A DNA stretch of 55,093 nucleotides from an uncultured virus (IMG/VR IMGVR_UViG_3300015171_000006) (Duplodnaviria > Heunggongvirae > Uroviricota > Caudoviricetes), in IMG/VR virus record IMGVR_UViG_3300015171_000006, positions 1 to 55,093 of that record. One strand, given 5' to 3'. The notes below the pieces were generated by a model. The model did not search any database. It worked only from the letters and a program-made list of their open reading frames with translations, and was not told where the DNA came from. How positions within the stretch are numbered: position 1 is the first letter of the stretch; each line of letters opens with the position of its first letter. Shown here one piece after another: positions 1 to 55,093 of this stretch. The position numbers were made by a program, and so were the translations under genes.

Positions 1-4
1 AACG

Positions 5-79
5 TTCGCTGTTATGATTTTTTAAGTAGCAAATAATTATAAAGGCAGATGGAACTACTTAAAAAATCATAACAGCGAA
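5..79. repeat. Perfect 25-bp inverted repeat (spacer hairpin), copy A
   Basis: TTCGCTGTTATGATTTTTTAAGTAG (5-29) / CTACTTAAAAAATCATAACAGCGAA (55-79), 25-nt loop; identical to 52327-52401. Confidence 0.95.
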
Positions 80-93
80 GCGGAAATTCAAGC

Positions 94-122
94 CTCACTT
101 ATAAGAAACTCTTATATTAAAT
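94..122 (+). other. dif-like XerC/XerD site 1 (7-bp central region)
   Basis: CTCACTTATAA-GAAACTC-TTATATTAAAT; right arm is 10/11 identical to the XerD box TTATGTTAAAT. Confidence 0.75.
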
Positions 123-211
123 TGGCGCTAACACAGCCATGAGTAAAAGCGTCAGGAAAATTGTAAAGACAGCCAACGCCACTTGTTTTTATCGGAATTT
201 GATATTTTATT

Positions 212-643
212 ATGGAGAAAAGCATTAGTGATAATCTTGCGAAGCATGTTGAATTATCAAACGACAAATTCCAAAAGTATTATAATTGGTTGCGTGGTTT
301 AATTGCTATAGCTGGAGGCTTGGTAGCTATTTTAATATCTTTAAAAAGCGGAATTTCAAAAAACCCAAATCAACACAAATTATTTATTTCTACTATAGGA
401 TTACTATCCGCAGGTATCCTTTTTGGATCAATCGTATTATATCAGGAAGTTTATATTGCAGGCAAATATCTTCAAGTGATGCACGATCACATAAAAGAAC
501 AATTTGAGGGCTACAAAGGAGACTTACTTGGCTGGATAGAAATCCCAAAAATTTATAAAATATGTTCTTACCTATGTATAATTTCTTTTGTTTTGTCGTT
601 AATATCTCTTGTAACTTATGCGGTATTTGCCGATTTGCCATAG
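212..643 (+). CDS. Hypothetical multi-pass membrane protein (module A cargo)
   Basis: 143-aa ORF with three hydrophobic segments, opposite to structural genes, inside a pair of dif-like sites. Confidence 0.8.
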   Translation: MEKSISDNLAKHVELSNDKFQKYYNWLRGLIAIAGGLVAILISLKSGISKNPNQHKLFISTIGLLSAGILFGSIVLYQEVYIAGKYLQVMHDHIKEQFEGYKGDLLGWIEIPKIYKICSYLCIISFVLSLISLVTYAVFADLP

Positions 644-730
644 TTTCTTTTAACAGTATAAAAAAATATTAGAAAAATTTAGAGGCATGATTGTTAATTT
701 ACAAACACAGCTTCATAAATCGCTTCAATA

Positions 731-985
731 ATGTACGTGTCTCTCCCTCTCCAATATTGGCAGCCTGCAGTCCTCCAAATCTTCAACAAGGGAAAGAAGT
801 TAAATTATGTAGTCCAGATCATGTTATACTGGTTTATTGGGACGTTAGTACTTTCTTTAGGGCTTAATGCGAAAGATATTATAAAATATTTTTTAGGGAG
901 AAATAAAGAGAAAGCCAAAACAACGACATCACAGCAATCCCTAAAAGGTCTTCAGAATCAATCCACGAAAGATACTTCCAAATAG
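731..985 (+). CDS. Small hypothetical membrane protein (true start may be ATG at 820)
   Basis: Hydrophobic stretch MLYWFIGTLVLSLGL followed by a basic tail. Confidence 0.45.
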   Translation: MYVSLPLQYWQPAVLQIFNKGKKLNYVVQIMLYWFIGTLVLSLGLNAKDIIKYFLGRNKEKAKTTTSQQSLKGLQNQSTKDTSK

Positions 986-1171
986 ATTTCAAAACATAAT
1001 TTTTCGCAGCTTTTACATTTTCAAATCAGTATCATGTTATGTTGTTAGAAAATGACAAAGGCAGTCATTTTCGCTTCGCCTTTTAGAACAACAATTTTCC
1101 CGCCCCTTTTGCCCTCACTTTCCCGGCGCTTTGGGGTTGCCTTCTTGAAAACTTACAACCCCTGCTAACCA

Positions 1172-1200
1172 AAATAACATAAGAGCTAATTATAGGCTTT
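1172..1200 (-). other. dif-like XerC/XerD site 2 (inverted relative to site 1)
   Basis: Minus strand AAAGCCTATAA-TTAGCTC-TTATGTTATTT, same 11-7-11 layout. Confidence 0.7.
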
Positions 1201-1345
1201 TTTCATAATCTGATTACTTTGTCCTTATGAATTTTTATTAATTATTGCCAACGCTTCTTAAAAAAAAGATTCTTATATTTAATGTGTCGACAAGATAGGA
1301 AGCCGGTTGCCAGTAGATTAATCTAATACCGCAACCACTTCCGAT

Positions 1346-1379
1346 AAGCCGCAAGCATCCAGTTTGCGGTTTCTTTTTT
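1346..1379 (+). terminator. Rho-independent terminator-like hairpin
   Basis: AAGCCGCAA...TTGCGGTTT followed by a T-rich tract. Confidence 0.55.
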
Positions 1380-1437
1380 CTATAATGCCTTAAGAAAATA
1401 ATTAATAAAAATTCAAAGAACAAGAACGGCCTGCTAA

Positions 1438-1486
1438 GTTGCGATCTTTTAAATAATCTTTTTTTAATTGCAGAAAAGATCGCAAC
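1438..1486. repeat. 13-bp perfect inverted repeat downstream of the gp10-like gene
   Basis: GTTGCGATCTTTT (1438-1450) / AAAAGATCGCAAC (1474-1486). Confidence 0.7.
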
Positions 1487-1505
1487 GCTTATGCTAAGGT
1501 AATAA

Positions 1506-2027
1506 TTATTTTAATGATTGCTTTAATTCTTCAAAATTCTTTTCTACTGCAGGCACAAAAAAAGGATGAGGCTTAATACCGTTTCTTAAAATACTTCTCG
1601 CTATTAAATAAGCAGCCCCATTACCTTCAATTCCTTTTCGTTTCACCCATCCCATTATTCTCAAAATAAAATCATCAAAATTTCCGCCTGAGCCACCTTT
1701 AAATTTTGCCGCATATTCTTGCCACGTTGCGGGTAATGTGCTTACGTAAGCTTCGGCAAATCTTCGTGTTCCAAACTCAATATAAGCGGCATAATTAGCG
1801 GCCACAACTATTTTAGTTTTTACTTTTACATCACCGGTATTTGCCGGCTCAAATGAGATGGCGTTTCTTAAAAAACCTTCATCAACAGGGGCATTTACTT
1901 TTGCCTGGTTAACTGTTTTAATAGCAAAATTATTCAGCTTATCAGCCATGATTTTATTTATGTCCTGCTTTGCTTTGCTGAATTTTGCCTCTACGCCTTT
2001 TGTATCTATATTTAAAGTAAGCCCCAT
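1506..2027 (-). CDS. HK97 gp10-family tail completion/neck protein
   Basis: Motifs AKVNAPVDEGFLRNAI, YAAYIEFGT, PHPFFVPA. Start re-set to ATG at 2027, just after the stop of the upstream gene. Confidence 0.88.
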   Translation of the reverse strand: MGLTLNIDTKGVEAKFSKAKQDINKIMADKLNNFAIKTVNQAKVNAPVDEGFLRNAISFEPANTGDVKVKTKIVVAANYAAYIEFGTRRFAEAYVSTLPATWQEYAAKFKGGSGGNFDDFILRIMGWVKRKGIEGNGAAYLIARSILRNGIKPHPFFVPAVEKNFEELKQSLK

Positions 2028-2028
2028 A

Positions 2029-2355
2029 TTAAGTAGTTGTTGCACTGCACCGGCATACGCAGTATTTACGGTTGCCTTCATCTAAATAGGATATGGATTT
2101 TATTTGCAAAACCTTACTATCATACTCAATAATAAAGTTTGATTTTACTACCCTGGTTTTTTCATATCTGAAGGTTACTTTATAATCATAATTCCATAAT
2201 GCCTGCTCTTGCCCTGTGTATAATGAACCGCTCCTTGCCTCTACTTTTGCCCAAATACTATAGAACTGATCAACTACAGCGCTAACACCCCCGCCTGCAT
2301 CTTTAGATGTAGTGTAAGATTTTAAAGTAATCTTCCTGTTCATTTCTCCTATCAT
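2029..2355 (-). CDS. Head closure protein (SPP1 gp16-like)
   Basis: MIGEMNRKITLKS...D.GGG...IWAKVE pattern and position. Confidence 0.85.
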   Translation of the reverse strand: MIGEMNRKITLKSYTTSKDAGGGVSAVVDQFYSIWAKVEARSGSLYTGQEQALWNYDYKVTFRYEKTRVVKSNFIIEYDSKVLQIKSISYLDEGNRKYCVCRCSATTT

Positions 2356-2364
2356 TACTTTATA

Positions 2365-2610
2365 TTAAGTAAGTGTTTTAATATATTTATTCATCTCATC
2401 AATTTGCTTTGATTGACTTTTTATAATATCCTTTGCCAATCCAACAACATATTCATCTTTACTTTTTGCAATTGCCTGTTTACTCATTGTTAATGCCATT
2501 TGGTGATGTTTTACCATGGCCTGCAGCCAATCTTTATCACTAAATTTATTCATTGGCATAGATTTCTTAAATTCAGTTAATGCCGATATAATTTCATTTG
2601 TCTGTATCAT
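2365..2610 (-). CDS. DUF305-like (ferritin-like, Met/His-rich) small protein
   Basis: D..WLQAMVKHHQMALTMS...LAKDIIKSQSKQIDEM matches the DUF305 half-domain pattern. Confidence 0.75.
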   Translation of the reverse strand: MIQTNEIISALTEFKKSMPMNKFSDKDWLQAMVKHHQMALTMSKQAIAKSKDEYVVGLAKDIIKSQSKQIDEMNKYIKTLT

Positions 2611-3155
2611 ACGCCTCTTACTTGTTGTAAATATACTTTTGCATTATCAGCAATTTTGCCATCACCGCGGTTCTCATACATATACGCTATCTGGCAAAGT
2701 ATTGCTATTTTATAATTTGCCGGCAAGGCGGTAAACCCTGCATTATATTCAGCAGTAAAATCACCATCGTAAGGCTCATTAAGATTGGATATTACCAAAG
2801 CATTCCCGTCCATATCTTTATAAATCACGTCTCCAATTACCGGACCGAAAGGAAGAGTAATATCTCCCAGGCCGTTATGAATTTTTGCCTTTACATTTCG
2901 GTTTATAAAAGAAAGGTTTGCGTAGTTTTCACATACACCCCTTGCTGCTGAAATAAGCATGGTTATTAAAGTATCATCATCTGTCACATCTACACGCAGC
3001 CAGTTTTTTGCCTCATCAAGTGTTATCCATTCACTGTCATTCTCCTCGCTGAATTTCACATTAGTAACCGCATTAAAAGCAATGCCGGTGCCGCCAATAA
3101 CACTTAGCCGGTTACGCTTTGCATCTTCACTGTCGCCTTCAAAAATGTAACTCAT
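2607..3155 (-). CDS. Head-tail connector (HK97 gp6/SPP1 gp15-like)
   Basis: ITLDEAKNWLRVD...DDTLITMLISAAR...AIL..IAYMYENRG. Confidence 0.9.
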   Translation of the reverse strand: MSYIFEGDSEDAKRNRLSVIGGTGIAFNAVTNVKFSEENDSEWITLDEAKNWLRVDVTDDDTLITMLISAARGVCENYANLSFINRNVKAKIHNGLGDITLPFGPVIGDVIYKDMDGNALVISNLNEPYDGDFTAEYNAGFTALPANYKIAILCQIAYMYENRGDGKIADNAKVYLQQVRGV

Positions 3156-3156
3156 A

Positions 3157-3792
3157 TTATTTCTTTTTTACAATTATCAATTCTTTATAAAAATGGATAA
3201 ATTCAAATTTATTATTAACCACATCTTCAGTTTTTAAATGCTCATAATTTAGCTGATGCGTTAATTGCTGAAAGTAATGCATGGAAGTATTTGCAGATAA
3301 GTCTTTGCTTCCTTCATATTCAGTATCCTCAAAATAGCTTGTATGCACATCTTCAATAAAATAAATATCCCCGCTCTGCAGCAGCGGAAATATCATCTCA
3401 AATGTTTTTATGGTTAGGCTGTTGTTGTGGCTGGCATCATCAATAATAATTCTTTTATCAGATCCTTTTTCCCTTTCCAATATTGAAGCAAATAAATTTT
3501 CATCTGCTTGAGAACCTTGCCAAAATTCAGTCCGGTCATTAACTATATTTATTTTATCATAAAGATCAATGCCAATTATTTTACCCTGCACAAAATAATC
3601 ATACCACATACGCAGGCTTTCGCCGCCCCTGTCTGCATAATGATAACCGCCAACTCCAATCTCAACTAAAGAAATTTTATTATTTCTTAATGGTTCAAGG
3701 TATAGCTCATAAGTTTTGCAATAATCATGGTAAGTGCTGCTTTTATCAGTACCGTATTTTAAAGCAAGGTTATCTAAGCTTTCCATGGCCAT
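3157..3792 (-). CDS. Class I SAM-dependent methyltransferase (sugar O-methyltransferase-like)
   Basis: KYGTDK...H.Y...YE, LVEIGVG, IIGIDL, IIIDDASH, GDIYFIEDV. Confidence 0.85.
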   Translation of the reverse strand: MAMESLDNLALKYGTDKSSTYHDYCKTYELYLEPLRNNKISLVEIGVGGYHYADRGGESLRMWYDYFVQGKIIGIDLYDKINIVNDRTEFWQGSQADENLFASILEREKGSDKRIIIDDASHNNSLTIKTFEMIFPLLQSGDIYFIEDVHTSYFEDTEYEGSKDLSANTSMHYFQQLTHQLNYEHLKTEDVVNNKFEFIHFYKELIIVKKK

Positions 3793-5270
3793 GTATTTAC
3801 ATAAGTTTCTAATTGCGGTTTACTCATTTCTTTCACCTTATAAAACTCCTGGTCATTCTTTTTAAAATGCGGGTGATTGGTGCTGCTGTTTGCCCCAATA
3901 AAGTGATCCATGTGATACATTTTCCCTTTTACCCTTTTCACTTTTAAGTCAAGCATATTAAACCTGTCATACCGCTCGCTATCTTCGGGGCCCCAGCTTA
4001 CAAAGTTTTCATTTTCCATACCGGCATTAATAAAAGATTGTTTACTCATTACAACTGCATGTCCTACGCTGCTATGCGTTTTAGGCAGGCATTTACTAAT
4101 ATTAATGTCATACACATCTAAGCTTTCAATCACATCGTTAAACATATAGCGTGGCACTCTTGCCACCCTTCCGTCAAAAGGATAAACAATATCAGCGCCT
4201 TCATTAATTAATTTAACCGATTCATAAAGCTGTGCCGGCGGGCAAATATTATCCCCGTCCCAATTAACAACTACCTCAGTTTTAGCTTTCTTAACTAAAT
4301 CGTTTATCATTTTTGTACGATGAAAATGCGGCATATGAAAGTTTACATAAGAAACATATTCACTCATAAAAGCAAACTCATTTCCGCCCTGCTCGCCAAT
4401 AATAATATTAGTATTAAAATTCTTAAGCATAAAGCCAACCGTAAGCATTATATTTAGCTTCCTGTCTAAGTGATCGTACATTACCGGAATAATAAATGTT
4501 GTATCTTTTAAATCAATCTTATCATTGTTCATCTTCCATTCACCGGGCCAGTAATCTTTCTCATCATACCGCAAAGCATCAAAGTTTTTTGCAGGCCTTA
4601 TCACATTTTTACTGTCTGATAAATAAGCGCCCCACCAGCTAAAAGTCGAGTTGCTTATAATAAAATTATCGCACATACTCATTAAACATAGCTGCTCAAT
4701 ATCATTTAAACCATCCGCAAAAAATACATTTTCCAAAGCTTCAAAATGCAGCCTGCAGTAACTAAAATCATCTGTAAAAATGATGATATTACAATCACTG
4801 AAATATTTATAATAAGCCGATAAATAATAACTTACAGGAACCTGGTAATAATTTTTGTTGTTTACAAAATCACCGCGGCGGATGCTTATTGCAACAGTAT
4901 GTTTTTGAAAGGCGCCGGAAAAATTAGATTTTAATCTTTCTTTTATTTCTGCCTTAAACTCAAATTGTTTTCTCACCTCACATTCAGCATTAGCCCAATA
5001 TTTTTCTGATTGAAAAAACCCCTCCAGATCATAATTTATAGCACTGTCAAGCTTAAATAATTCTTCATCAAAATGGAAGAACTTCTCTTTTAAAACTGTT
5101 GAGTTTGCGGCGCCATCATGCGGCAAATTATTTTCAAAATAATCTTCGTAATTCCATAAAGGGAAACTGCATGTTGTATCATTAGCTTTAGCAATACCCA
5201 TGCAGGAAGCCACTTGAAACAATTGATTTCCAAGCCTGCCTAAAGTTCCCAAAGAGGAAAAGGTTATCAT
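3774..5270 (-). CDS. Bifunctional glycosyltransferase: GT11 (alpha-1,2-fucosyltransferase-like) fused to a GT-A (GT2/GT7C-like) domain
   Basis: GT11 motifs GRLGNQLFQ, ISIRRGDF, SNSTFSWWGAYL; C-terminal TFIIPV, WDGD (DxD), WGPEDSER. Confidence 0.88.
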   Translation of the reverse strand: MITFSSLGTLGRLGNQLFQVASCMGIAKANDTTCSFPLWNYEDYFENNLPHDGAANSTVLKEKFFHFDEELFKLDSAINYDLEGFFQSEKYWANAECEVRKQFEFKAEIKERLKSNFSGAFQKHTVAISIRRGDFVNNKNYYQVPVSYYLSAYYKYFSDCNIIIFTDDFSYCRLHFEALENVFFADGLNDIEQLCLMSMCDNFIISNSTFSWWGAYLSDSKNVIRPAKNFDALRYDEKDYWPGEWKMNNDKIDLKDTTFIIPVMYDHLDRKLNIMLTVGFMLKNFNTNIIIGEQGGNEFAFMSEYVSYVNFHMPHFHRTKMINDLVKKAKTEVVVNWDGDNICPPAQLYESVKLINEGADIVYPFDGRVARVPRYMFNDVIESLDVYDINISKCLPKTHSSVGHAVVMSKQSFINAGMENENFVSWGPEDSERYDRFNMLDLKVKRVKGKMYHMDHFIGANSSTNHPHFKKNDQEFYKVKEMSKPQLETYVNTWPWKA

Positions 5271-5479
5271 GCTGGTACTTTAATTTTATTCTTTTTATTA
5301 ATCACATTCGGTTTATTACCCTGTAAATGTCTTAAAAGAATTGCTTCAGTTTTCGCCGGGTCAGCATCAGCACTTTCAGCTACATTGCATCTTATAAGAT
5401 AGCTTCCCATACTTTCATCAAAATCAACTTCTTCTCCCGGCTTCCAGTTAATGTGTTTTTTTAAAAACCTTATCAGCAT
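5267..5479 (-). CDS. Small protein downstream of major capsid gene
   Basis: 70-aa ORF overlapping the next start; IRFLK...KPGEEV pattern typical of post-capsid small proteins. Confidence 0.7.
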   Translation of the reverse strand: MLIRFLKKHINWKPGEEVDFDESMGSYLIRCNVAESADADPAKTEAILLRHLQGNKPNVINKKNKIKVPA

Positions 5480-5495
5480 AAATATTTATTAAAAT

Positions 5496-5527
5496 AAAAC
5501 CCCTGTTATATTTCAAACAAGGGTTTT
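5496..5527 (-). terminator. Terminator-like hairpin after major capsid gene
   Basis: AAAACCCCTGTT...AACAAGGGTTTT stem with a T-rich tract on the minus strand. Confidence 0.6.
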
Positions 5528-5545
5528 ACATAAGATTAAAAAATA

Positions 5546-6997: not shown

Positions 6998-6998
6998 T

Positions 6999-11641: not shown

Positions 11642-11935
11642 TGATTTTTTAAGTAGTTCCATCTGCCTTTATAATTATTTGCTACTTAAAAAATCATAAC
11701 AGCGAACGTTCTTTATTTATCAGAGTATGAGAGCCTTGATTATAAGATAATATTATGTTACTCAGGTTAGCCGTTTAGCCGCAATTCAATTTTATATTTT
11801 TGCGTAAGCTTTTAAAATTGAGATTGCACGCTGGCTGCTGTAGCGTTGAAGGCTGGCTTAAAAAGTAAAATAAAAAATGTCTTTGAGAGCGAAGCAAGAT
11901 TGCTGGTTTTTGAGCAATCTTTCAATATCATACGT
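11642..11935 (-). repeat. Inverted partial copy of the module-end/spacer element
   Basis: 11642-11773 and 11851-11935 are reverse-complement matches to about 52260-52391 and 52095-52179; the middle differs. Confidence 0.92.
11735..11763 (+). other. dif-like XerC/XerD site 3
   Basis: CTTGATTATAA-GATAATA-TTATGTTACTC. Confidence 0.72.
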
Positions 11936-12038
11936 GGGTAAAAAACCCTTACCTTTATAAAAATAAAAAACCCATTACGCCAATAATGGGGGATTGCACA
12001 TACTATCAATATGAACATATCAAAGTTAATACTTTTTT

Positions 12039-12254
12039 ATGTTCAAATATTTTATTGTATTTACTTCTCTTATGTTTATTTTATATTCTTGCGAACACAA
12101 GAAAATACATCATCAGTCCATTTTAAAGCCTGACCCCTATATTACCAAGATGTACTTTCAGATGGATAGTTTAATAAAATCTGATGCAAAAAGCGGCACG
12201 TATGTAATAGAAGGAGACACTATTACTTTTTTAAAGTATCAATTGGGTGACTAA
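12039..12254 (+). CDS. Small putative lipoprotein (module C cargo)
   Basis: Signal peptide with lipobox-like LYS-C. Confidence 0.65.
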   Translation: MFKYFIVFTSLMFILYSCEHKKIHHQSILKPDPYITKMYFQMDSLIKSDAKSGTYVIEGDTITFLKYQLGD

Positions 12255-12972
12255 GCGGCAAAAGACTTATCCCTAATTCTGGCAACTCCGTTCCACTTAC
12301 GACTAAGTTCATACTAAAGTGAAATGTGTCTTTGTATTCTTTACCGTTTAAATCAAGACAATTTATTGTAAAAAGAGTTTTATTTGTAATTAAATCCGGT
12401 ACTACATAATAAGGGAAACTAAAACTTGCTGTACAAGCAATTGGTTCTAATGGATTCAATCTATATATTTTCTCCATATCAATAAGATTTGAATAACTGG
12501 CTTTAACGTTTATTGCTGTTGTATCCATATTCGGGGGAAGCAAAGAGGCTTTGCCACTCACTATTCCATATTTGGGCGTTTCTACAGTTAAGCCGTATGG
12601 GCCATTAATAAATAATGGCTTCTCTCCATTATTTTCTAAGATTCCTGAAATGATTACAACTTGGCCACTTTGCTTTTTTATTGGGTCTCTATATTGCCCT
12701 ACATACATTGCTCTTGGATGGTATTTAAAAGAAGGTCTGTCTGTAAAATATGACACGACTTTGAATATTCCTGGAATACCACCTATAGCGCCGATTAATA
12801 AGATTATGAGTGAAGAATAAATATATGAAGGCTTTTGGGAAATTTCCTTAATAGATAACTTTCTATCCCTTATGTTTTTAGGTTTTACAACATTTTTTTC
12901 ACTTATAGGAAGCTTTGGTTGCGGGAGAGGAAATTTTGGCTTTTGCTTTTTTGTAAATTTTGGCTTGCCCAT
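12223..12972 (-). CDS. Membrane-anchored hypothetical protein (module C cargo)
   Basis: Basic N-terminus, one TM segment, beta-rich remainder. Confidence 0.75.
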   Translation of the reverse strand: MGKPKFTKKQKPKFPLPQPKLPISEKNVVKPKNIRDRKLSIKEISQKPSYIYSSLIILLIGAIGGIPGIFKVVSYFTDRPSFKYHPRAMYVGQYRDPIKKQSGQVVIISGILENNGEKPLFINGPYGLTVETPKYGIVSGKASLLPPNMDTTAINVKASYSNLIDMEKIYRLNPLEPIACTASFSFPYYVVPDLITNKTLFTINCLDLNGKEYKDTFHFSMNLVVSGTELPELGISLLPLSHPIDTLKK

Positions 12973-13009
12973 TCGCTAAAATAAACATTCTTCGAAACAA
13001 ACCTCAATC

Positions 13010-13117
13010 AAAAACCAGTGGCGCTGGCTTTTTTATTTTACTTTTTCAGAGGCTGTGCAGTGCCTGTTTAACATAATGGTTTCTTATAAGTGAGGCTTGA
13101 ATTTCCGCTTCGCTGTT
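13010..13117 (-). repeat. Inverted copy of the module-start element
   Basis: Reverse complement matches about 52393-52500 with few substitutions. Confidence 0.92.
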
Positions 13118-16223: not shown

Positions 16224-17924
16224 TCATCTTCCCGGAAGTTCAAGCAACTCCGGGTTAAGCCTTATACGGCCTCCTTCTCTTTTTATAAGTTCCAATGTAT
16301 TTAATGCACTTAGCGCATTATTAAAACCGCCGGAGTTAAAAGAATATTTACTTTCCGTTTTATAGGCAAGCTCTTCTTTTGAAAAATCTTTATGAGTGTT
16401 TGCCAGCAACACATCATAAATTTCTCTTTCGCACTTACTTAGCTTATTGCGATATGTTTCAATTGAATATTCCTGGGGAGTAAAATTGAACTCAGATAGG
16501 TTTCCTGATGCCTGTAATTTACCGTTCTCTCTTTTTATCAATCCTTTTGTAAAAAGTTCACTAACTGCATTATTAAATCCGCCTGAATTTGGAGAGTAAC
16601 CCGCCGCTATCCCTACCTGGGCCTTAGAAAAAAACCGATCCTGGAAAGATGCTAAAAATTGAAGTACAGCATAAGAACATTTACCTAACTGTCCACTGCT
16701 GTTATTATTTTCAATTTTATTAATATTACCAGCAAATTTTTGATTGTGATTTACAAAATTTTTAGATGGATTTTCTACAACTTTACTGGCGATATTATTT
16801 ACAACTTCTGATTTAAAGTAAGCCATGGGTTCTAAGTCAAACGCACTTCTAACTTTATTAATTTGCTTATATAATTTTTGCAAATAATCTTTTTGCTGAA
16901 TTATCAGTGTGTCCTTACTTTTTAGTTCCTGTTTCAACTTTACATTTTCATCTTTTAATCGTACGATCTCATTATCATTTGATACAGTTTGTACTGATTT
17001 TATTACGCTTTTTTCTTTTTTCTGCTCAACAGGCTTATCTAATAATTTATTTAGCTTCTCAACCCATACAGTAACATCAATTTTCTTTTTAGCAGAATCA
17101 ATAATCTCAGTTGATTTTTTGGGATCCGGATGGAATGTTTTGCGCTCCAAAACCTGAATTAGTTGCGGGTTCTCTGTTAATCCTATAGCCCAGCATTCAC
17201 CCTGTTTTAACCCCGGCAAAGACTTTATGATATCTTTTGTATTATCAACCTGCCTCAGCTCCAGCCATTGCTGAATTGATTTTAATGAATTCTTTCCTAC
17301 TTGTTTATGCAATAAGCTGAAGGCTGATATTTCCAGGATGGCTTTATTTACTTCTTCAGCCCTTTGGTTTATCAGTGTGTAACCAAGCCGGGCATTTCTT
17401 CCCATACGGGCAAGGCGCTCCAGTGAGGCATATACTTTTGAATGTTGTGGCTGCAATCTTTGCGGAATAAACTCTGCAGCTTCTTCAATAAAAATGTGCC
17501 TCATCCCATAGCTTTTATTTTCATACATAAGCAGATCTACAGTTTCCTGAACGATCCTTATCCATGAACTTTTATTGATAAGCTCAGGAGAATAAAGATC
17601 AATTACAAGGCTTACGTTTTCCTTCATAGCAGCTCTCACAATATCAACCGCATTATTTACTGTAAGCCGGATATCACTTCCCTCGCCGCCGGCAGTTACA
17701 ACAGGATAACCAATATGTTTATCAATACCGATCTTTAAATTCTTCCATACTCCCACCGGATCATATACAATTATCGGGATGTTATTATCAAGCAACTCCT
17801 CAGCTGCTTTCATTGCTGTATAAGTTTTGCCTGCATCACGTATACCGAGAATGGCATTACCCTGGCCGGCATAATCTATTGCAGGAATAGAGAAAGTGTT
17901 GCTTAATACTAATTGATTATTCAT
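16224..17924 (-). CDS. HerA/DUF87-like P-loop ATPase with coiled coil and two tandem winged-helix-like repeats
   Basis: Walker A GIRDAGKT, YDPVG, Walker B FIEEAAE, GRNARLGYTLINQR; duplicated YS.NSGGFNNA.S.L...LIKRE.G. Confidence 0.85.
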   Translation of the reverse strand: MNNQLVLSNTFSIPAIDYAGQGNAILGIRDAGKTYTAMKAAEELLDNNIPIIVYDPVGVWKNLKIGIDKHIGYPVVTAGGEGSDIRLTVNNAVDIVRAAMKENVSLVIDLYSPELINKSSWIRIVQETVDLLMYENKSYGMRHIFIEEAAEFIPQRLQPQHSKVYASLERLARMGRNARLGYTLINQRAEEVNKAILEISAFSLLHKQVGKNSLKSIQQWLELRQVDNTKDIIKSLPGLKQGECWAIGLTENPQLIQVLERKTFHPDPKKSTEIIDSAKKKIDVTVWVEKLNKLLDKPVEQKKEKSVIKSVQTVSNDNEIVRLKDENVKLKQELKSKDTLIIQQKDYLQKLYKQINKVRSAFDLEPMAYFKSEVVNNIASKVVENPSKNFVNHNQKFAGNINKIENNNSSGQLGKCSYAVLQFLASFQDRFFSKAQVGIAAGYSPNSGGFNNAVSELFTKGLIKRENGKLQASGNLSEFNFTPQEYSIETYRNKLSKCEREIYDVLLANTHKDFSKEELAYKTESKYSFNSGGFNNALSALNTLELIKREGGRIRLNPELLELPGR

Positions 17925-17932
17925 TGTAATGT

Positions 17933-18217
17933 TTATTGATAAATTAAACCCGCTGCGTCTATAAATATTTCTGGTTCTTTTTCATAATATTCATCAGGCC
18001 TGCTTTCGGCTACTAAAAATATTTGCCACCTTTTTGCCTTACTTATTTTACTGATAAAAATTCCTTTCATATACTGCACATTTTCTTCAACTACTTTTTT
18101 TCTCCATTCAGTTCTTTCTTCCTCTGTAAGCTCGTTTTCATCCAGCCGCCGGAACAGATAATCTTCTATCTGCATCTCATTGTATAACGAGCCGTTTAAG
18201 TATAGCTGGAGCTTCAT
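17933..18217 (-). CDS. Hypothetical protein
   Basis: 94 aa, start overlaps the recombinase stop. Confidence 0.65.
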   Translation of the reverse strand: MKLQLYLNGSLYNEMQIEDYLFRRLDENELTEEERTEWRKKVVEENVQYMKGIFISKISKAKRWQIFLVAESRPDEYYEKEPEIFIDAAGLIYQ

Positions 18218-19086
18218 AGTGCCGCGATTAATTTTTCAGGAATTAATACCGCTGATAAAATAACATCCGCTTGGGCTATCCGGCTGCTAAGGGTTTTCTT
18301 AGAAAGCTTTAAATAAAAATCTGCCGTGGTTTTTATTTGCTGATGGCCAAGAAAATCGCTTACATCTTTTATATCAATTCCGGCATCATGTAAATGCGTA
18401 GCCCTGCTGTGCCGAAGGCTGTGCGGCTTCACTGCACGGTTAATACCAATTCTATGTACTCCCTGCCAAAATACCTGCTGGATAGATCTTACAGAATATT
18501 GCTCATTATACTGGCCTTCAAACAACCATTTCTTCGGTTTATTTTTTTCGGCTATGTAATAGGATTTAAGAAGCTCCAGTGTGTCTGCAGGTATGGGAAC
18601 TTCACGATCTTTAAAACCTTTGGCGCCTTTTACCCTAAGCAGCCGGGTATCGCTTTTAATATGAGACAATTCAATATTTATAATCTCGCCAATGCGAAGG
18701 GCACAGGAATAAAATAATTGAATGATTGCCCGGTGTTTTAAATTTTGGTAAGAATTTACAAGCCTGCTAATCTCCTGGATGCTGAATATTTCCGGCAGGT
18801 AATTGGTAGCTCTCGGATATGGTATATCCTCAAAGTTTACAGGCTTTTTTAATACAAGTTTATAAAAGTGCCTGATAGCTGCTGTGAATTGCTTATGATA
18901 GTTTTGGTTTTTTATGGCGCCAAGAAATATTTTTATTTCCTCAAATGGCAGTGGCTTTGGCTTACCATTCATTGCATGAAGAAAAATACCCAGGCAACTT
19001 GCATAAGTCTCAATGGTGCTATCAGCATATTTTAACGCCGTTAGCTCAATTTTAAATTTCCGCATTAGCTCATCATACCGGGTCAT
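18214..19086 (-). CDS. Tyrosine recombinase, integron-integrase-like (SAM-like N-terminus, no I2 insertion)
   Basis: Y..STIETY; catalytic ALRIGE, GAKGFKDR, HSLRHS, LGH, Y; adjacent to attI/attC-like sites. Confidence 0.9.
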   Translation of the reverse strand: MTRYDELMRKFKIELTALKYADSTIETYASCLGIFLHAMNGKPKPLPFEEIKIFLGAIKNQNYHKQFTAAIRHFYKLVLKKPVNFEDIPYPRATNYLPEIFSIQEISRLVNSYQNLKHRAIIQLFYSCALRIGEIINIELSHIKSDTRLLRVKGAKGFKDREVPIPADTLELLKSYYIAEKNKPKKWLFEGQYNEQYSVRSIQQVFWQGVHRIGINRAVKPHSLRHSRATHLHDAGIDIKDVSDFLGHQQIKTTADFYLKLSKKTLSSRIAQADVILSAVLIPEKLIAAL

Positions 19087-51707: not shown

Positions 51708-52269
51708 GTAAAGTAAAAGTAAAATCTTAATGTTTTTTGTTCAATAAGTTTATACTTAAAAACTATTTGGACCTTCCACTTAATTCAGCCCGGCCAACAG
51801 GCTATTCAAAAAAAACAAATATGCGACTAATTATATAACTTGCAAATTATAAGTACTTGCCCAAGCGCTTAATTTGAAGGTAAAAAAAGTCTTTTAGTAG
51901 ATAACAAAAATACTACTAAATGACAAAGTTTTGCCTAATTGGGCTAATATTTTTTTCTTGCAATATTTACCGAAAAATCCCATCTAAAATGTCAACTGTT
52001 CATCCCAAGCATGAATACAGAATTGGTGATACAATTATTATAAAAAATAAGAAATACTGTGTAATAGATGTGAGAATGTAAAGGGATTTTATCTACGTAT
52101 GATATTGAAAGATTGCTCAAAAACCAGCAATCTTGCTTCGCTCTCAAAGACATTTTTTATTTTACTTTTTAAGCCAGCCGGCCAAGCTATGCAGCTCCTA
52201 TGAAAGCTGATTTTTTGCCGCATACGCTAAATTAAAAAATCACTTTCCAGCCAGTCTCTCGGCTAACCT

Positions 52270-52298
52270 GAGTAACATAATATTATCTTATAATCAAG
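52270..52298 (-). other. dif-like XerC/XerD site 5
   Basis: Minus strand CTTGATTATAA-GATAATA-TTATGTTACTC, identical to site 3. Confidence 0.72.
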
Positions 52299-52415
52299 GC
52301 TCTCATACTCTGATAAATAAAGAACGTTCGCTGTTATGATTTTTTAAGTAGCAAATAATTATAAAGGCAGATGGAACTACTTAAAAAATCATAACAGCGA
52401 AGCGGAAATTCAAGC

Positions 52416-52444
52416 CTCACTTATAAGAAACCATTATGTTAAAC
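52416..52444 (+). other. dif-like XerC/XerD site 6
   Basis: CTCACTTATAA-GAAACCA-TTATGTTAAAC, identical to site 4. Confidence 0.8.
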
Positions 52445-52517
52445 AGGCACTACACAGCCCCCAAAAAAGTAAAATAAAAAAGCCCGCGCCACTGGTTTTT
52501 ATTATGTAGAATGTATA

Positions 52518-53183
52518 TTGTGGAGAATGGGAATTTATAAACTATACTTGTTTCTTTTACTGCTTTCACCTATAGCCTCTTTTCCTCAAATAAAAAGAAT
52601 AAATAATATTAACGTGAGCCTTAAAAACCTTATATCAGAAACATCCAAAATTATGGATATTTTGCACATAAGTAAAAGGGTCAATTTAAAAAAAGATTCT
52701 CCATCCATAAACGTTCTTATAGATAGTACCGTCCTTCCATTTAATGCGTTTTTTGGCGGATTACATAAAAATGAAAGAGGTGTTATAACTCCATCAGGCA
52801 ACCATGCTTTAAGGTACTACAGATATCCTGCTATAAGGATGAATCCGCTTTTGCATTTAATAGTTTCAAAGAAGAAAGATACTACTGCTTTTGTCAGGCT
52901 TAAGGCAATATCAATTTTTGTTCACGAATTGGTTCATTATTTACAAGCTACTTGGTGGGTACACAACATTACTGTAACCTCGTATGATCAAATGGAATCT
53001 TATATATCTCAACCTGATGAATTTGAGGCTTATGGAGCAGAAGCATATTTCCTTTTAAAATATTACAATGAAAAATTATTAAGTAGTATAATGTACTCCA
53101 AAAACACACAAGAAACAAAAATGAAATTATTAATCAAATCATACTACTCAACCGTATATCCGTGGAGAGCTAAAATTTTTTAA
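52518..53183 (+). CDS. Secreted HExxH zincin-like protein (module B cargo)
   Basis: Hydrophobic N-terminus; FVHELVHYLQ and downstream Y..QPDEFEAY. Confidence 0.72.
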   Translation: MWRMGIYKLYLFLLLLSPIASFPQIKRINNINVSLKNLISETSKIMDILHISKRVNLKKDSPSINVLIDSTVLPFNAFFGGLHKNERGVITPSGNHALRYYRYPAIRMNPLLHLIVSKKKDTTAFVRLKAISIFVHELVHYLQATWWVHNITVTSYDQMESYISQPDEFEAYGAEAYFLLKYYNEKLLSSIMYSKNTQETKMKLLIKSYYSTVYPWRAKIF

Positions 53184-53535
53184 TCTTTACTTATTATACT
53201 ATCAGGATAAATACAAATATTATACATAACGGTATCCATTCTGTTTATATTAATGGTATCGCATTTTACTAAATGTAAAGGCCTATGACACTTCTTTGAA
53301 GTATTGCAGCTTGTTAAAGTAAAAAACACAAACCACCGGAGGGAAAAAAATTTTCATTTGTTCAATGAATTAATATGAGTAATTTTGTTACTCATTTAAA
53401 CCATTAAACCTTATGATATTAATATAATTGCAGGCTGCTAACGCAGTCTGTTTGTGTTTTATAAAGGTAAGAAAATAATTTTTTCCCATATCCTGTTTTT
53501 TTGTACTTTGTACAGGATTTCAAAACTAAACAATC

Positions 53536-53883
53536 ATGGCTAAGATTCTAATAGTTGATGATGAGCAAGACCTTTTATATGTTGTAAAAATCCTTTTAAC
53601 AAAAGAAGGTTTTGAAGTTATAACACATTCCACTTATTCAAATGTTGAAGAAATTGTACTAAGGCATTCTCCTGATTTAATTCTTTTGGATGGAGTGATT
53701 CACGGAGGTTCAGGTCGGGAAATTTGTAAAGAACTCAAAAAAAATTACCCTATACCAGTTGTATTGTTTTCAGCACATAGCCCAATTTCAAAAACCTATA
53801 AAGATTACGATGCAGACGGTTTTATTCAAAAGCCTTTTGATATACCGGACTTTATAAATACTATTAAGTCATACCTCAATTAA
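53536..53883 (+). CDS. Single-domain response regulator (CheY-like, module B cargo)
   Basis: KILIVDDE, PDLILLD, GREICKELK, PVVLFSA, ADGFIQKPF. Confidence 0.93.
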   Translation: MAKILIVDDEQDLLYVVKILLTKEGFEVITHSTYSNVEEIVLRHSPDLILLDGVIHGGSGREICKELKKNYPIPVVLFSAHSPISKTYKDYDADGFIQKPFDIPDFINTIKSYLN

Positions 53884-54151
53884 TAGTTTTAGGTTATCGG
53901 TTTAAGTTGTCTACCTTACTGCTGGTTTTCACAAGTATAGCGAATTTTTAAGGGAGGTGAATCTTTATTCTGCCTCCCAATTTTTTTTCACTCCCCCTTG
54001 GTATAATGCCTTGATTACTCACCATATTTTAATTTAATAGAATTATTTATTACCTTTCTTTTCTCATAGACCAGTTAGTTTGGTATATAACCGAGGGCGA
54101 ATTTTTATTCTGCCCTCCTGTTTTTATGTTGTAAGATTGGTATATTAGCGA

Positions 54152-54811
54152 ATGGAAAGAAGGAAGTTTATAATTACCGTGAAGCAAAGGATTATTCTTG
54201 GACTTGTAGGCCTTTTCTTCACTTTTGCTATTGCATATATTAAAGGATGCTTTAATAAAACGGAAGCTAAAAAAATGCCAGTAGTCAATTCTCATATTAG
54301 TAATTATCAATCGAGCATCGGTCAACAATATAATGCGGGTAGAGATATAGTATTTTCTTCGCCAACCTCAAAGGTTGATACAAACACCACTAATCCATTG
54401 TTAACCAAAGTGCATACAGGGCAAAAAAACCAAAGAAAATTTAACAGCACTAAAAAAGATACTCTAATTGTTAACAATGGTTTTATAAATAATGGAGGAG
54501 TTGGCAATACGTATAACCAAACAATGAACCCTCCTTCGGAACAAAGGCACTTAAGCCCACTGGATAAAATTTACCTTGATACTGCCTTTTCTCCTAACTT
54601 AAAATTTTTCTTATTAGATGTTTACAATTTTGACAAGGAAAGTTTGAACTTATCAAATGAAATAAGTAATTACTTGGAATCAAAAAACTATACACCAATG
54701 ATGCGGCAACCAGAAAATATTCTTGGCGGAGTTCCGAAGGATAGCTTAGGCAAAATTAATATTATAAAATATGATGGGAGTTTTAAGATAATTATTTATC
54801 CATTGAAATAA
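54152..54811 (+). CDS. Membrane-anchored hypothetical protein (module B cargo)
   Basis: Basic N-terminus, one TM segment, low-complexity linker, globular C-terminus. Confidence 0.72.
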   Translation: MERRKFIITVKQRIILGLVGLFFTFAIAYIKGCFNKTEAKKMPVVNSHISNYQSSIGQQYNAGRDIVFSSPTSKVDTNTTNPLLTKVHTGQKNQRKFNSTKKDTLIVNNGFINNGGVGNTYNQTMNPPSEQRHLSPLDKIYLDTAFSPNLKFFLLDVYNFDKESLNLSNEISNYLESKNYTPMMRQPENILGGVPKDSLGKINIIKYDGSFKIIIYPLK

Positions 54812-54932
54812 TTTTTACCCAAGGATTAATCCTATTACAATGCCAATTCTAATTGCTTTCACTATAAGTCTATAAGGGATACCAAATAACAATTTTAATT
54901 AACGCAGTCAGTTTTAGAACGGTAAATTTACC

Positions 54933-55093
54933 ACGTATGATATTGAAAGATTGCTCAAAAACCAGCAATCTTGCTTCGCTCTAAAAGACATTTTTTATTT
55001 TACTTTTTAAGCCAATCGGCCAAGCTATGCAGCTCCTATGAAAGCTGATTTTTTGCCGCATACGCTAAATTAAAAAATCACTTTCCAGCCAGT
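54933..55093 (+). repeat. Left part of module-junction element (copy A), cut by the contig end
   Basis: Matches 52095-52255. Confidence 0.93.

What the first reader, a model, noticed from the sequence alone, without database searches (positions are those of the whole stretch)
94..190. Identity between repeat copies breaks inside the 7-bp central region, like a crossover scar
Seen: 1-109 is identical to 52323-52431. Divergence begins within the centre (GAAAC|TC versus GAAAC|CA), and beyond it the XerD-side flank is homologous but diverged (TTATATTAAATTGGCGCTAACACAGCC versus TTATGTTAAACAGGCACTACACAGCC). The two sites bounding module A share the XerD-proximal CTC (GAAACTC, TTAGCTC). Known: tyrosine recombinases exchange strands at the edges of the central region. 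Inference: module A is a foreign family member joined to the resident spacer by site-specific recombination.
Basis: partly seen in the sequence, partly recalled or inferred. Interest (0 to 1): 0.75.

Follow-up and report, generated by a model that had tools for sequence, protein, structure and literature searches.

The report
Phage-borne dif-like cassette junction
The break in repeat identity sits at the edge of a dif-like recombination site that joins two gene cassettes in a phage genome, and the same kind of cassette array sits next to the chromosome's own dif site in soil and freshwater Chitinophagaceae bacteria.

Summary
Window 1-109 equals 52323-52431, the first differences are at 110-111, and the flank beyond is homologous at 57 of 83 positions.

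The window is a whole, circularly permuted tailed-phage genome. The repeat is a quasi-palindrome: two inverted dif-like sites (11-nt arm, 7-nt centre, 11-nt TTATGTTA-type arm) flank a 27-bp hairpin. Three identical copies separate gene cassettes.

A pattern for this twin site found nothing in IMG/VR. It found 20 genome loci, all those named being Chitinophagaceae or other Bacteroidota, and 32 metagenome loci. In the genome loci it lies 0.5-1.3 kb from a canonical single-copy dif at the replication terminus, in arrays built like the phage's.

One occupied-versus-unoccupied pair puts the junction at the centre/XerD-arm boundary. The phage break is 2 nt from that boundary.

The Xer-type joining reading is supported. 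"Crossover scar inside the centre" rests on one informative phage junction. In 34 host pairs, sustained divergence always started outside the conserved XerD arm. A second class of breakpoint lies in the hairpin arm. The substrate, the enzyme and the module order across a 253-nt exact repeat remain unproven.

The parts
3..81 (+). Hairpin 'C module', copy 1: arms 3-29 and 55-81, 25-nt loop. It is identical to 52325-52403 and, up to position 69, to 11642-11708 on the minus strand.
   Evidence: 25-nt perfect arms at 5-29 and 55-79; fold z-score -9.5; the unitig at 11642-11773 has depth 55.7 against about 18, which is three copies.
94..122 (+). Site R1, a hybrid dif-like site: C arm 94-104, 7-nt centre 105-111 (GAAACTC), D arm 112-122 (TTATATTAAAT). 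Identity with copy 2 ends after 109.
123..192 (+). Leader of cassette A. It is homologous to the leaders of cassettes B and C; together with the last two centre bases and the D arm, 110-192 matches copy 2 at 57 of 83 columns. It ends in a GCC..CGCCACT.GTTTTT motif that host cassette leaders also carry.
212..985 (+). Cargo of cassette A: ORFs 212-643 (143 aa) and 731-985 (84 aa). No family match.
1172..1200 (-). Site LA, an inverted dif-like site that closes cassette A: D arm 1172-1182, centre 1183-1189 (TTAGCTC on the minus strand), C arm 1190-1200.
1219..1454 (+). Second, different hairpin (19-bp perfect arms at 1228-1246 and 1397-1415), followed by a weak candidate partner site at 1429-1454. 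I read it as cassette A's own hairpin module. The partner site is uncertain.
11642..13117 (-). Cassette C, inserted between the large terminase and portal genes. On the minus strand it runs: repeat positions 71-190 with site R3 (13066-13094); ORF 12223-12972 (249 aa); trailer X3 (11764-11955); site L3 (11735-11763); hairpin positions 1-69 (11642-11710). Both ends lie in the right arm of the hairpin.
   Evidence: 48 of the 50 relatives that hold both genes have the portal gene within 507 nt of the terminase match, against 1803 nt here.
52080..52255 (+). Trailer X, the end of an upstream cassette, with two small hairpins. X' at 54918-55093 differs at 10 of 176 positions, the last at 52178. X3 at 11764-11955 is a mosaic: identical, then diverged, then identical.
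52270..52298 (-). Site L2, an inverted dif-like site: D arm 52270-52280, centre 52281-52287 (GATAATA on the minus strand), C arm 52288-52298.
52325..52403 (+). Hairpin 'C module', copy 2.
52416..52444 (+). Site R2: C arm 52416-52426, centre 52427-52433 (GAAACCA), D arm 52434-52444 (TTATGTTAAAC). One metagenome-assembled genome (L113) has the same 23-nt core.
52445..54917 (+). Cassette B: leader 52445-52502, then ORFs 52518-53183 (221 aa), 53536-53883 (receiver domain, 115 aa) and 54152-54811 (219 aa).
54918..55093 (+). Trailer X' at the contig end. About 67 nt that hold site L1 are missing between 55093 and 1.
   Evidence: three-fold depth of the core, and the loose end at 11937.
16224..19086 (-). 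Possible partner enzymes; any link to the sites is not shown. A Xer-like tyrosine recombinase (18214-19086, 290 aa), a 94-aa ORF, and a HerA/FtsK-like ATPase (16224-17924, 566 aa).
   Evidence: XerA_Arch 181.7 bits, below the cut-off of 220; XerC 138.6; XerD 131.2. HerA models.

Best explanation
Bases 94-190 are a hybrid dif-like site (R1) followed by the leader of gene cassette A.

The window is a tailed-phage genome. It carries an array of Xer-type cassettes between its head and tail genes, and one more cassette between the terminase and portal genes. Gene modules are bounded by XerD-type arms that face inward. They alternate with a small, invariant hairpin module bounded by XerC-type arms.

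The same element family sits beside the chromosomal dif site in Chitinophagaceae. There, units made of leader, cargo, trailer, inverted site, hairpin and direct site are inserted on the XerD side of dif and stack into arrays.

R1 is the junction where the hairpin module of one unit (the B lineage) meets the XerD arm and leader of a unit from a diverged lineage (A). It was made by tyrosine-recombinase exchange at or next to the centre/XerD-arm boundary. That is why identity stops 2 nt before the arm.

Shown: the anatomy, the homology to host dif-linked arrays, the position of the host junction, and variable cargo between constant ends.

Inferred: that Xer recombinases do the joining, that the twin sites may act as a folded hairpin, and that the phage can ferry the cassettes between hosts.
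For: (1) Identity 1-109, and a break at centre positions 6-7.

(2) Twin inverted sites around a hairpin. The fold pairs arm with arm and leaves the centres unpaired; z-scores are -7.7 and -9.5.

(3) The core is present three times at identical sequence: depth 55.7 against about 18.

(4) The twin-site pattern has 0 hits in IMG/VR. It has 20 loci in species genomes, whose record titles name Chitinophagaceae, Chitinophagia, Sphingobacteriia or Bacteroidota in 19 and only 'bacterium' in one. It has 32 metagenome loci. All 21 elements tested have 15-33-bp perfect stems of differing sequence.

(5) Host dif. A 22-nt pattern hits 170 of 301 family genomes: once in 169, twice in 1, and 0 in the reversed control. 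In a complete 3.30-Mb chromosome it lies within 20 kb of the cumulative GC-skew peak.

(6) In 14 of 20 host loci this dif lies within the 2 kb of flank fetched, always in the order dif(+), module, L(-), hairpin, R(+). Three loci hold two units. A metagenome contig has three.

(7) The element is occasional. It occurs in 1 of 301 family genomes, the centre genome itself, and in 3 of 30 genus loci. Another 25 of those 30 have a bare dif with an ordinary flank.

(8) Occupied versus unoccupied, with flanks 91-92% identical: chromosome identity resumes at the first base of the XerD arm, and the dif-side site keeps its own C arm and 6-nt centre.

(9) Three species share flanking genes at 95-99% amino-acid identity but hold unrelated cargo between the same ends.

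(10) In 14 of 14 genomes the XerD-side 3 nt of the dif centre equal those of the L-type site. This includes ACA twice and ATG once. The R-type site matches in 0 of 14. The phage's R1 and LA pair shows the same rule with CTC.
Against: - Only one heterologous junction exists in the window, and its left side is identical for at least 176 nt. Only one limit of the exchanged block is fixed.
- The break is 2 nt inside the centre. Simple strand-exchange models do not predict a chimeric centre. It fits equally if the target simply had the centre GAAACTC.
- In 34 host or metagenome pairs that share a hairpin module, none of the 20 R-side breaks and none of the 23 L-side breaks fell in the centre or D arm. 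They fell at 19-66 and 24-133. Those pairs are few families and were chosen for equal hairpins.
- Within-genome copies also run 12-110 nt past the arm.
- Cassette C, and a solo site in L114, begin inside the hairpin's right arm. Another process therefore also cuts these elements.
- The 7-nt centres differ from the 6-nt dif centre.
- No close relative of the phage or of its repeat was found, so no population data exist.
- The left end of the phage array (51708-52080) shows no recognisable site.
- No binding or cleavage was tested.
Confidence: 0.68

Rival explanations
1. The repeats are regulatory or terminator palindromes that flank phage morons. The copies are kept identical by homologous recombination or gene conversion. 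The edge of the identical tract falls at a dif-like word by coincidence, with no site-specific recombinase involved.
For: - The identical tracts are long: at least 176 nt, and 253 nt between copies 1 and 2.
- Trailer X3 is a mosaic of identical, diverged and identical stretches.
- Host breaks lie outside the sites.
- Tandem duplication of whole units occurs (L201).
- The phage encodes RecT.
- Cargo changes between conserved leaders and trailers, as expected if those ends serve as homology anchors.
Against: - The same architecture sits beside the single-copy chromosomal dif in 14 of 20 host loci.
- The D arm equals the dif D arm.
- L-type centres co-vary with the dif centre in 14 of 14 genomes.
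- In the occupied-versus-unoccupied pair, the change falls exactly at the arm boundary.
- A gene-conversion tract ending within a 7-nt centre of an element about 370 nt long is roughly a 2% event (my estimate, not a test).
Confidence: 0.15
2. The recombination partner is a folded single strand, as with CTXphi. The L and R copies pair into one forked-hairpin site, and one strand exchange with dif (or with a dif-like target in the phage) is completed by replication. This concerns how the best explanation works, not whether it holds.
For: - Two inverted dif-like sites lie about 127 nt apart and pair arm to arm, with unpaired 7-nt centres.
- The outer leader and trailer also pair, through 18-nt perfect arms at 52153-52170 and 52464-52481.
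- Stem structure is conserved with changed sequence in 21 of 21 elements.
- The L-type centre follows the dif centre, although it is the R side that is joined to dif. A folded site would explain this, because L supplies the strand opposite R.
- CTXphi has attP1 and attP2 in opposite orientation about 90 bp apart, forming a 150-nt forked hairpin (PMC3089051, passages read).
Against: - The carrier here is a double-stranded tailed phage and a chromosome.
- No replication or nicking gene is seen in any cassette.
- In hosts the dif-side junction keeps the dif centre. That fits exchange on the XerD side, not the XerC-only exchange described for CTXphi.
- Nothing was tested on single strands.
Confidence: 0.3
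3. The phage's own Xer-like recombinase (18214-19086), perhaps with the neighbouring HerA/FtsK-like ATPase, acts on the sites in the phage genome, rather than the host's XerC/XerD.
For: - A 290-aa Xer-type recombinase lies next to a HerA-like ATPase.
- The 7-nt centres differ from the host's 6-nt dif centre.
- The phage also has a separate Bacteroidota-type integrase for lysogeny.
Against: - Host arrays exist without this phage.
- The recombinase is only 30-37% identical to any homologue in the four host genomes tested.
- Among the 79 terminase relatives, only 1 locus encodes a homologue nearby.
- Its scores are below the curated cut-offs of every Xer model.
Confidence: 0.2
4. Assembly artefact. 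The array, or the order of its modules, is a mis-join across repeats, or a piece of host dif region is chimerically attached to a phage contig.
For: - A 253-nt exact repeat cannot be bridged by k-mers.
- The contig starts and ends inside the repeat, with 67 nt missing.
- Only one run holds the sequence, and it may be the source sample.
Against: - An independent assembler's unitigs cover each unique junction. Record 2 spans 86-11671, running from R1 into cassette A and the head genes. Records 6 and 8 cover cassette C and its terminase-side junction. Depth is even at 17.8-23.6.
- The array lies between the head and tail genes of one permuted genome, and the contig holds no host genes.
- The alternative path consistent with the graph is an excised circular unit B, which would itself be the predicted mobile form.
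Confidence: 0.04

Closest known systems
[quoted passage not shown]
   Same: - Modules are bounded by dif-like sites of alternating orientation.
- Modules with XerD arms inward (here, the gene cassettes) alternate with modules with XerC arms inward (here, the hairpin).
- A C-plus-D pair is the unit bounded by direct sites.
- Cargo varies on a constant frame.
- The XerD arm is the same word as in that paper's table of pdif sites.

Source: PMC13141974, abstract and passages read; window and host anatomy.
   Different: - There the spacers are 6 bp, and crossovers were shown by PCR between sites with identical or near-identical spacers. Here the internal sites have 7-nt centres, and no event has been observed.
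- The C module here is always a 15-33-bp hairpin of about 120-140 nt with no gene.
- Cassettes carry long conserved leaders and trailers that are inverted repeats of each other.
- The carriers are a Bacteroidota chromosome terminus and a tailed phage, not Rep_3 plasmids.
CTXphi-type integrative elements that exploit Xer (IMEX) with a forked-hairpin attP(+)
   Same: - Two dif-like sites lie in opposite orientation, separated by a spacer of the order of 100 nt.
- They can pair into a stem with an unpaired centre.
- Insertion is at the chromosomal dif.
- The element has no recombinase of its own.
- Units stack at dif, and the dif-type site is kept after insertion.

Source: PMC3089051, passages read.
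   Different: - CTXphi is a single-stranded filamentous phage with its own replication genes. These units are 0.7-2.8 kb, hold 0-3 unknown ORFs and no replication gene.
- The host junction here keeps the dif centre on the dif side. That points to exchange at the XerD edge, not the XerC-only exchange described for CTXphi.
- Here the units also sit in a double-stranded tailed-phage genome.
Integron gene cassettes with folded attC sites
   Same: Arrays of promoterless-looking small cassettes, each ending in an imperfect palindrome whose structure is conserved more than its sequence. One cassette (C) is bounded inside the right arm of the hairpin. The comparison with attC is from my own knowledge.
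   Different: - There is no integron integrase. The NCBIfam integron-integrase models score 116.7 and 80.1 bits, against cut-offs of 265 and 435.
- There is no attI or Pc.
- The palindromes carry canonical Xer-type arms and sit at dif.
Phage morons bounded by conserved boundary sequences
   Same: Extra genes with their own flanking hairpins lie between conserved late genes: head-tail, and terminase-portal, the latter absent from 48 of 50 relatives. The moron concept is from my own knowledge.
   Different: The boundaries here are homologous to a host chromosomal dif-linked element and carry Xer-type arms. Moron boundaries are not known to.

Membership tests
Xer/dif-type recombination site | Two 11-nt arms around a 6-8-nt centre, with a TTATGTTAAAT-like XerD arm and an ..ATAA XerC arm | tested here: met
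   R2, R3 and L sites match. R1 has one change in the arm (TTATATTAAAT). Arms were compared with the host dif and with the published site tables seen.
Xer/dif-type recombination site | Homology to the carrier's or host's own chromosomal dif | tested here: met
   The D arm is identical or near-identical to the single-copy Chitinophagaceae dif, found in 170 of 301 genomes and at the terminus. The C arm and centre differ. The phage's actual host is not known.
Xer/dif-type recombination site | Bound and cut by XerC/XerD or a Xer-like enzyme | not testable with these tools
Acinetobacter-type dif module array | Alternating C and D modules bounded by inversely oriented sites | tested here: met
   the order (+) site, cargo, (-) site, hairpin, (+) site holds in the phage and in the 14 host loci where dif lies in range.
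Acinetobacter-type dif module array | 6-bp spacers, with exchange between sites that have identical or near-identical spacers | tested here: not met
   The internal sites have 7-nt centres, and centres differ between L-, R- and dif-type sites. Only the XerD-side 3 nt are shared, between dif and L.
Acinetobacter-type dif module array | Observed inversion, deletion or replacement with joints in the sites | tested here: inconclusive
   Cargo replacement between constant ends occurs in three related species, and there is one occupied-versus-unoccupied pair. No event was caught in reads; laid contigs only.
IMEX of the CTXphi type | Two inverted dif-like sites that fold into a forked hairpin | tested here: met
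   By in-silico fold only.
IMEX of the CTXphi type | Integrated at the chromosomal dif, which is kept functional | tested here: met
   This applies to the host relatives. Dif lies within 0.5-1.3 kb in 14 of 20 loci. The dif-side junction keeps the dif C arm and centre. It does not apply to the phage copies.
IMEX of the CTXphi type | Single-stranded replicative form, with XerC-only exchange | tested here: inconclusive
   No replication gene is present. The junction anatomy points to the XerD edge. The co-variation of L with dif favours a folded substrate.
Integron | IntI integrase with attI and Pc next to the array | tested here: not met
   the integron-integrase models score far below their cut-offs. 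The recombinase gene lies about 5 kb from cassette C and more than 17 kb from the main array.

The most novel reading that the evidence does not exclude
A tailed phage of Chitinophagaceae acts as a vehicle for small recombinase-less cassettes that normally live at the host's chromosomal dif.

Each cassette carries a large palindromic attachment structure. Its two inverted dif-like copies fold into one site, in which each strand is matched to dif for its own exchange. That would explain why the L-copy centre tracks the host dif centre in 14 of 14 genomes.

The units would hop between dif and dif-like targets in the phage genome by Xer recombination at the XerD edge of the centre. A second, hairpin-arm cleavage, seen in cassette C and in L114, would offer another route of insertion.
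Probability: 0.3. Interest if true: 0.85.

Novelty: new variant of a known kind. Interest (0 to 1): 0.72.

Why it matters
Mobile modules that depend on Xer are well documented in Acinetobacter plasmids and in filamentous phages of Vibrio and a few other Proteobacteria.

If this reading holds, a related system exists in Bacteroidota with a distinct design: an invariant hairpin module, 7-nt centres, and long inverted leader and trailer. It occupies the replication terminus of many soil and freshwater Chitinophagaceae. It is also carried inside a double-stranded tailed-phage genome, which would give such cassettes a route between hosts.

The co-variation between the host dif centre and the element's inverted site is a concrete handle on how strand exchange is specified.

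My four searches of the held paper library for dif, Xer, IMEX or dif modules together with Bacteroidetes, Chitinophagaceae or bacteriophage found no description of this. That library lacks most subscription journals.

Tried and rejected
- Rfam and tRNA scans of the window found nothing.
- Exact words from the hairpin and from the R site had 0 hits in IMG/VR and in JGI metagenomes. The window's own record may be left out of those scans.
- A single-site degenerate pattern gave 6 hits in IMG/VR. All look like chance: they lie in coding DNA, with no hairpin.
- blastn of the element against cultured-phage records gave no match. The best terminase match there is 32.7% identity over full length.
- The 79 terminase relatives (at most 70% amino-acid identity) hold no copy of the element. 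The 5 tail-tube relatives are too distant to use.
- A suspected shared boundary motif 5' of both arrays (51770-51790 and 13133-13155) scored 35 against a shuffled mean of 36.5, so I dropped it.
- An 8-nt direct repeat (CACAAATG) near both ends of cassette C is not flush with the ends. I left it as unexplained.
- tblastn of the phage cargo proteins against the 20 host loci gave no hit.
- PADLOC, Pfam, PHROGs and NCBIfam gave nothing for the cargo apart from the receiver domain.
- The ESM Atlas search for the 249-aa cargo returned only unnamed clusters at scores near chance.
- Logan contigs of the single holder run showed no joint that excises or inverts a cassette. Contigs cannot show rare forms.
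- The search of earlier findings returned nothing for this genome.
- The twin-site search among 120 viral loci with single dif-like sites gave 7 loose pairs, none convincing.
Full report
OBSERVATION. Window 1-109 is identical to 52323-52431. Ungapped, the first differences are at repeat positions 110 and 111, then 116, 122, 123 and 127. With gaps, 110-192 matches 52432-52502 at 57 of 83 columns. The dif-like site reads C arm 94-104, centre 105-111 and D arm 112-122, so the first two differences are the last two bases of a 7-nt centre.

The bare 10-mer of the D arm is not remarkable in this AT-rich window. It occurs 4 times against 1.99 expected, and 17 of 100 shuffles reach 4. The composite twin-site pattern occurs twice against none in 100 shuffles.

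WHAT THE WINDOW IS. It is a whole IMG/VR virus record, classed as linear, with a CheckV completeness estimate of 60%. Pfam finds terminase, portal, MuF, protease, capsid, connectors, tail tube, an endolysin-like GH19, RecT, a methylase and two tyrosine recombinases, nearly all on the minus strand. Head genes run from 11546 down to 1509, and tail genes from 51707 down to about 34000. The contig is therefore a circular permutation whose ends fall between the head and tail genes.

ANATOMY OF THE REPEAT. The full element spans 52080-52502. In order it holds:
- a trailer, X (52080-52255);
- an inverted dif-like site, L2 (52270-52298);
- a hairpin with 27-bp arms and a 25-nt loop (52325-52403);
- a direct dif-like site, R2 (52416-52444);
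- a leader (52445-52502).
As a single strand it folds into one long stem in which L pairs with R arm to arm and the 7-nt centres stay open; z-scores are -7.7 and -9.5.

The copies are as follows.
- R1 with the hairpin lies at 1-192.
- X' lies at 54918-55093.
- A split, inverted copy bounds cassette C at 11642-13117. On the minus strand, repeat positions 71-190 lie upstream of a 249-aa ORF, and X3, L3 and hairpin positions 1-69 lie downstream.

Logan unitigs of the one run that holds the phage give depth 55.7 for 11642-11773, against about 18 for unique phage DNA. The L-plus-hairpin core therefore exists three times with the same sequence, and the roughly 67 nt missing between 55093 and 1 hold the third L site.

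On the plus strand the array reads: X, L2, hairpin, R2, cassette B, X', L1, hairpin, R1, cassette A, LA, a different hairpin (1228-1415), then the end of the gp10-like gene. Cassette C is an insertion. In the 50 of 79 terminase relatives that hold both genes, 48 have the portal match within 507 nt of the terminase match. Thirteen of them show a gap of 2 nt with the portal aligned from residue 1. Here the distance is 1803 nt.

RELATIVES OF THE ELEMENT. The following searches found no relative:
- exact words from the repeat, in IMG/VR and in JGI metagenomes;
- blastn against cultured phages;
- blastn against the terminase relatives' loci.

A structural pattern was more productive: D arm, 7 nt, TTATAA, 112-142 nt, TTATAA, 7 nt, D arm. 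It had 0 hits in IMG/VR. In one-per-species genomes it had 20 loci, whose titles name Chitinophagaceae, Sediminibacterium, Flavisolibacter, Ferruginibacter, Chitinophagia, Sphingobacteriia or Bacteroidota in 19, and only 'bacterium' in one. It had 32 metagenome loci. In 5 of 5 genomes checked the pair occurs once. All 21 elements examined, the 20 host loci plus the phage, have a perfect stem of 15-33 bp with a 6-30-nt loop. The stem sequences differ between species, often with a ..GATTTTT.. run near the loop, as in the phage. One metagenome-assembled genome (L113) has an R site whose 23-nt core equals the phage's R2.

THE HOST SETTING. Most host loci hold a third site with a 6-nt centre and canonical arms. 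A 22-nt pattern for it hits 170 of 301 sampled family genomes: once in 169, twice in 1, and never in the reversed control. A looser pattern hits 43 of 61 genomes of one genus, once each.

In a complete 3.30-Mb chromosome this site lies at 1,851,941 and the twin site at 1,852,458. The cumulative GC skew, sampled first across the chromosome and then contiguously over 450 kb, peaks at about 1,832,457. I therefore take the third site to be the chromosomal dif.

In all 14 of the 20 loci where dif lies within the 2 kb of flank fetched, the order is dif(+), module, L(-), hairpin, R(+). Three loci carry two units, and others carry extra single sites. A metagenome contig has three units in tandem, two of them duplicates.

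The element is occasional. The twin-site pattern hits 1 of 301 family genomes, the centre genome itself. Of 30 genus loci, 25 have a bare dif with an ordinary flank, 3 have the element, and 2 have only a leader remnant. Flanking genes are housekeeping genes that differ between genera. Three close species share flanking genes at 95-99% amino-acid identity, yet hold unrelated cargo between the same ends.

WHERE THE JOINTS LIE. One unoccupied comparator exists: L164 against L172, with flanks 91-92% identical. The occupied genome has about 830 extra bases. Its dif-side junction keeps the dif C arm and 6-nt centre. At the far junction the element's C arm and 7-nt centre are followed by chromosome sequence that resumes at the first base of the D arm. 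The D arm and about 30 nt of leader are present on both sides. This puts the exchange at, or to the right of, the centre/D-arm boundary. The phage's R1 break is 2 nt to the left of that boundary.

Among 54 host and metagenome elements, 34 pairs share at least 93% identity in the hairpin module. Sustained divergence (at least 7 mismatches in 20 nt) began at positions 19-66 on the R side (20 pairs; 14 pairs had none). On the L side it began at 24-133 (23 pairs; 11 had none). Positions count from the first centre base. None began in the centre or the D arm.

These pairs come from few families and were chosen for equal hairpins. Their D arms are identical, so they cannot resolve a crossover inside the site. 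They do show that the breaks are not scattered. They cluster just past the arm or at the end of the conserved leader (about 60 nt) or trailer (about 100 nt). Within-genome copies behave the same way.

In the phage, R2 and R3 stay alike for about 75 nt before their cargo diverges. R1 is the only junction where a different D arm meets the common hairpin module.

A CO-VARIATION. In 14 of 14 genomes that hold both sites, the last three centre bases on the XerD side are the same in dif and in the L-type site. The count is ATA eleven times, ACA twice and ATG once. The R-type site matches in 0 of 14. Cassettes B and C do not follow it (CCA against ATA), nor do second-position host cassettes. This is what would be expected if every unit enters at the dif-type site and older units are pushed outward. 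That last step is inference.

A SECOND KIND OF BREAK. Cassette C begins at repeat position 71 and ends at 69, in the right arm of the hairpin. A solo R-type site in L114 also starts in the right arm, at the matching place just after ..ATC(A/G)TA. Two cases are too few to call this a cleavage site, and I leave it unexplained. The ends of C behave like a circular unit opened in the hairpin arm.

MECHANISM. The best-supported reading is that R1 is a junction made by Xer-type recombination between two units of one cassette family, with exchange at the XerD edge of the centre. The array as a whole is a phage-borne copy of the dif-linked arrays of Chitinophagaceae.

Whether the substrate is duplex DNA or a folded strand is open. 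Duplex DNA is the substrate for Acinetobacter dif modules (PMC13141974, abstract and passages). A folded strand is the substrate for CTXphi (PMC3089051, passages). The L-dif co-variation and the conserved pairing favour folding. The lack of any replication gene, and the double-stranded carriers, argue against it.

The phage's own 290-aa Xer-like recombinase sits beside a HerA-like ATPase. It is only 30-37% identical to homologues in four host genomes, and its role is unknown.

CAVEATS.
- No relative of this phage closer than 70% terminase identity was found.
- Only one run holds the phage, and that run may be the source of the assembly.
- X and X' differ last at 52178, so a 253-nt exact repeat links copies 1 and 2. 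The order of modules across it is not proven by k-mers. The other path the graph allows is an excised circle of unit B.
- The left end of the array (51708-52080) has no recognisable site.
- The partner site after the second hairpin (1429-1454) is weak.
- Cargo functions are unknown.
- The phage's host is inferred only from site similarity and a Bacteroidota-type integrase.

LITERATURE. Four searches of the held library combined IMEX, dif, Xer or dif modules with Bacteroidetes, Chitinophagaceae, bacteriophage or hairpin. They returned one unrelated paper, or none, apart from two CTXphi reviews. A fifth search returned 43 Acinetobacter papers (listing only, apart from the one paper read). Supplements were not consulted.

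Noticed in passing
L070 about 2250-2280, L072 about 430-458, L078 about 1050-1078 (minus strand of each locus): Three terminase relatives carry a canonical-looking dif-like site (11-6-11, D arm TTATGTTAAAT) in non-coding DNA about 650-730 nt upstream of the large terminase gene. Its position is conserved while the flanks differ.
   Followed up: partly
Recurring C-arm and centre types suggest that dif-like sites are common in Bacteroidota viral contigs. None showed a convincing twin site.
   Followed up: partly
window 16224-19086 (-): An operon-like trio: a Xer-like recombinase (290 aa), a 94-aa ORF, and a 566-aa HerA/FtsK-like ATPase. It lies upstream of the small and large terminase genes. 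A separate Bacteroidota-type integrase lies at 32608-33678.
   Followed up: partly
window 52181-52258 and 11790-11860; host loci: The trailer next to every L-type site holds a further hairpin. Its stem differs between copies and species, but its loop keeps an ..ACGC.. / ..TTAGCG.. motif. In the phage, X and X3 are identical on both sides of this hairpin and diverged within it.
   Followed up: partly
window 13010-13088: A 1687-nt Logan contig at depth 7 (phage depth about 18) matches the R3 and leader stretch with 7 differences. A second variant of the element is therefore present in the same run.
   Followed up: no
window 8792-8845: An 18-bp perfect inverted repeat lies inside the MuF-like gene. 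The Logan contig differs from the window at 8831-8848 by 7 substitutions and 4 indels. This looks like an alternative reading of the right arm.
   Followed up: no
window 35930-37258 (-) and 53536-53883 (+): The phage encodes two stand-alone receiver-domain proteins and a PAS-like protein. One receiver is cassette cargo. The other lies among the tail genes.
   Followed up: no
window 2365-2610 and 3774-5270 (-): A DUF305 fragment and a 498-aa fused glycosyltransferase (GT11 plus GT2/GT7C) are embedded among the head and connector genes. These look like further moron-type cargo, without the repeat.
   Followed up: no
L201 (metagenome contig, 3 units) and L116: Tandem arrays of units with about 700-nt spacing, in which two units are near-identical duplicates. 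Arrays therefore also grow by duplication of a unit. L116 has a run of N inside one hairpin.
   Followed up: partly
L164 and L173: Two genomes have dif followed by a cassette-type leader, with no L or R site within 1.5 kb. These are possibly scars of lost units.
   Followed up: no
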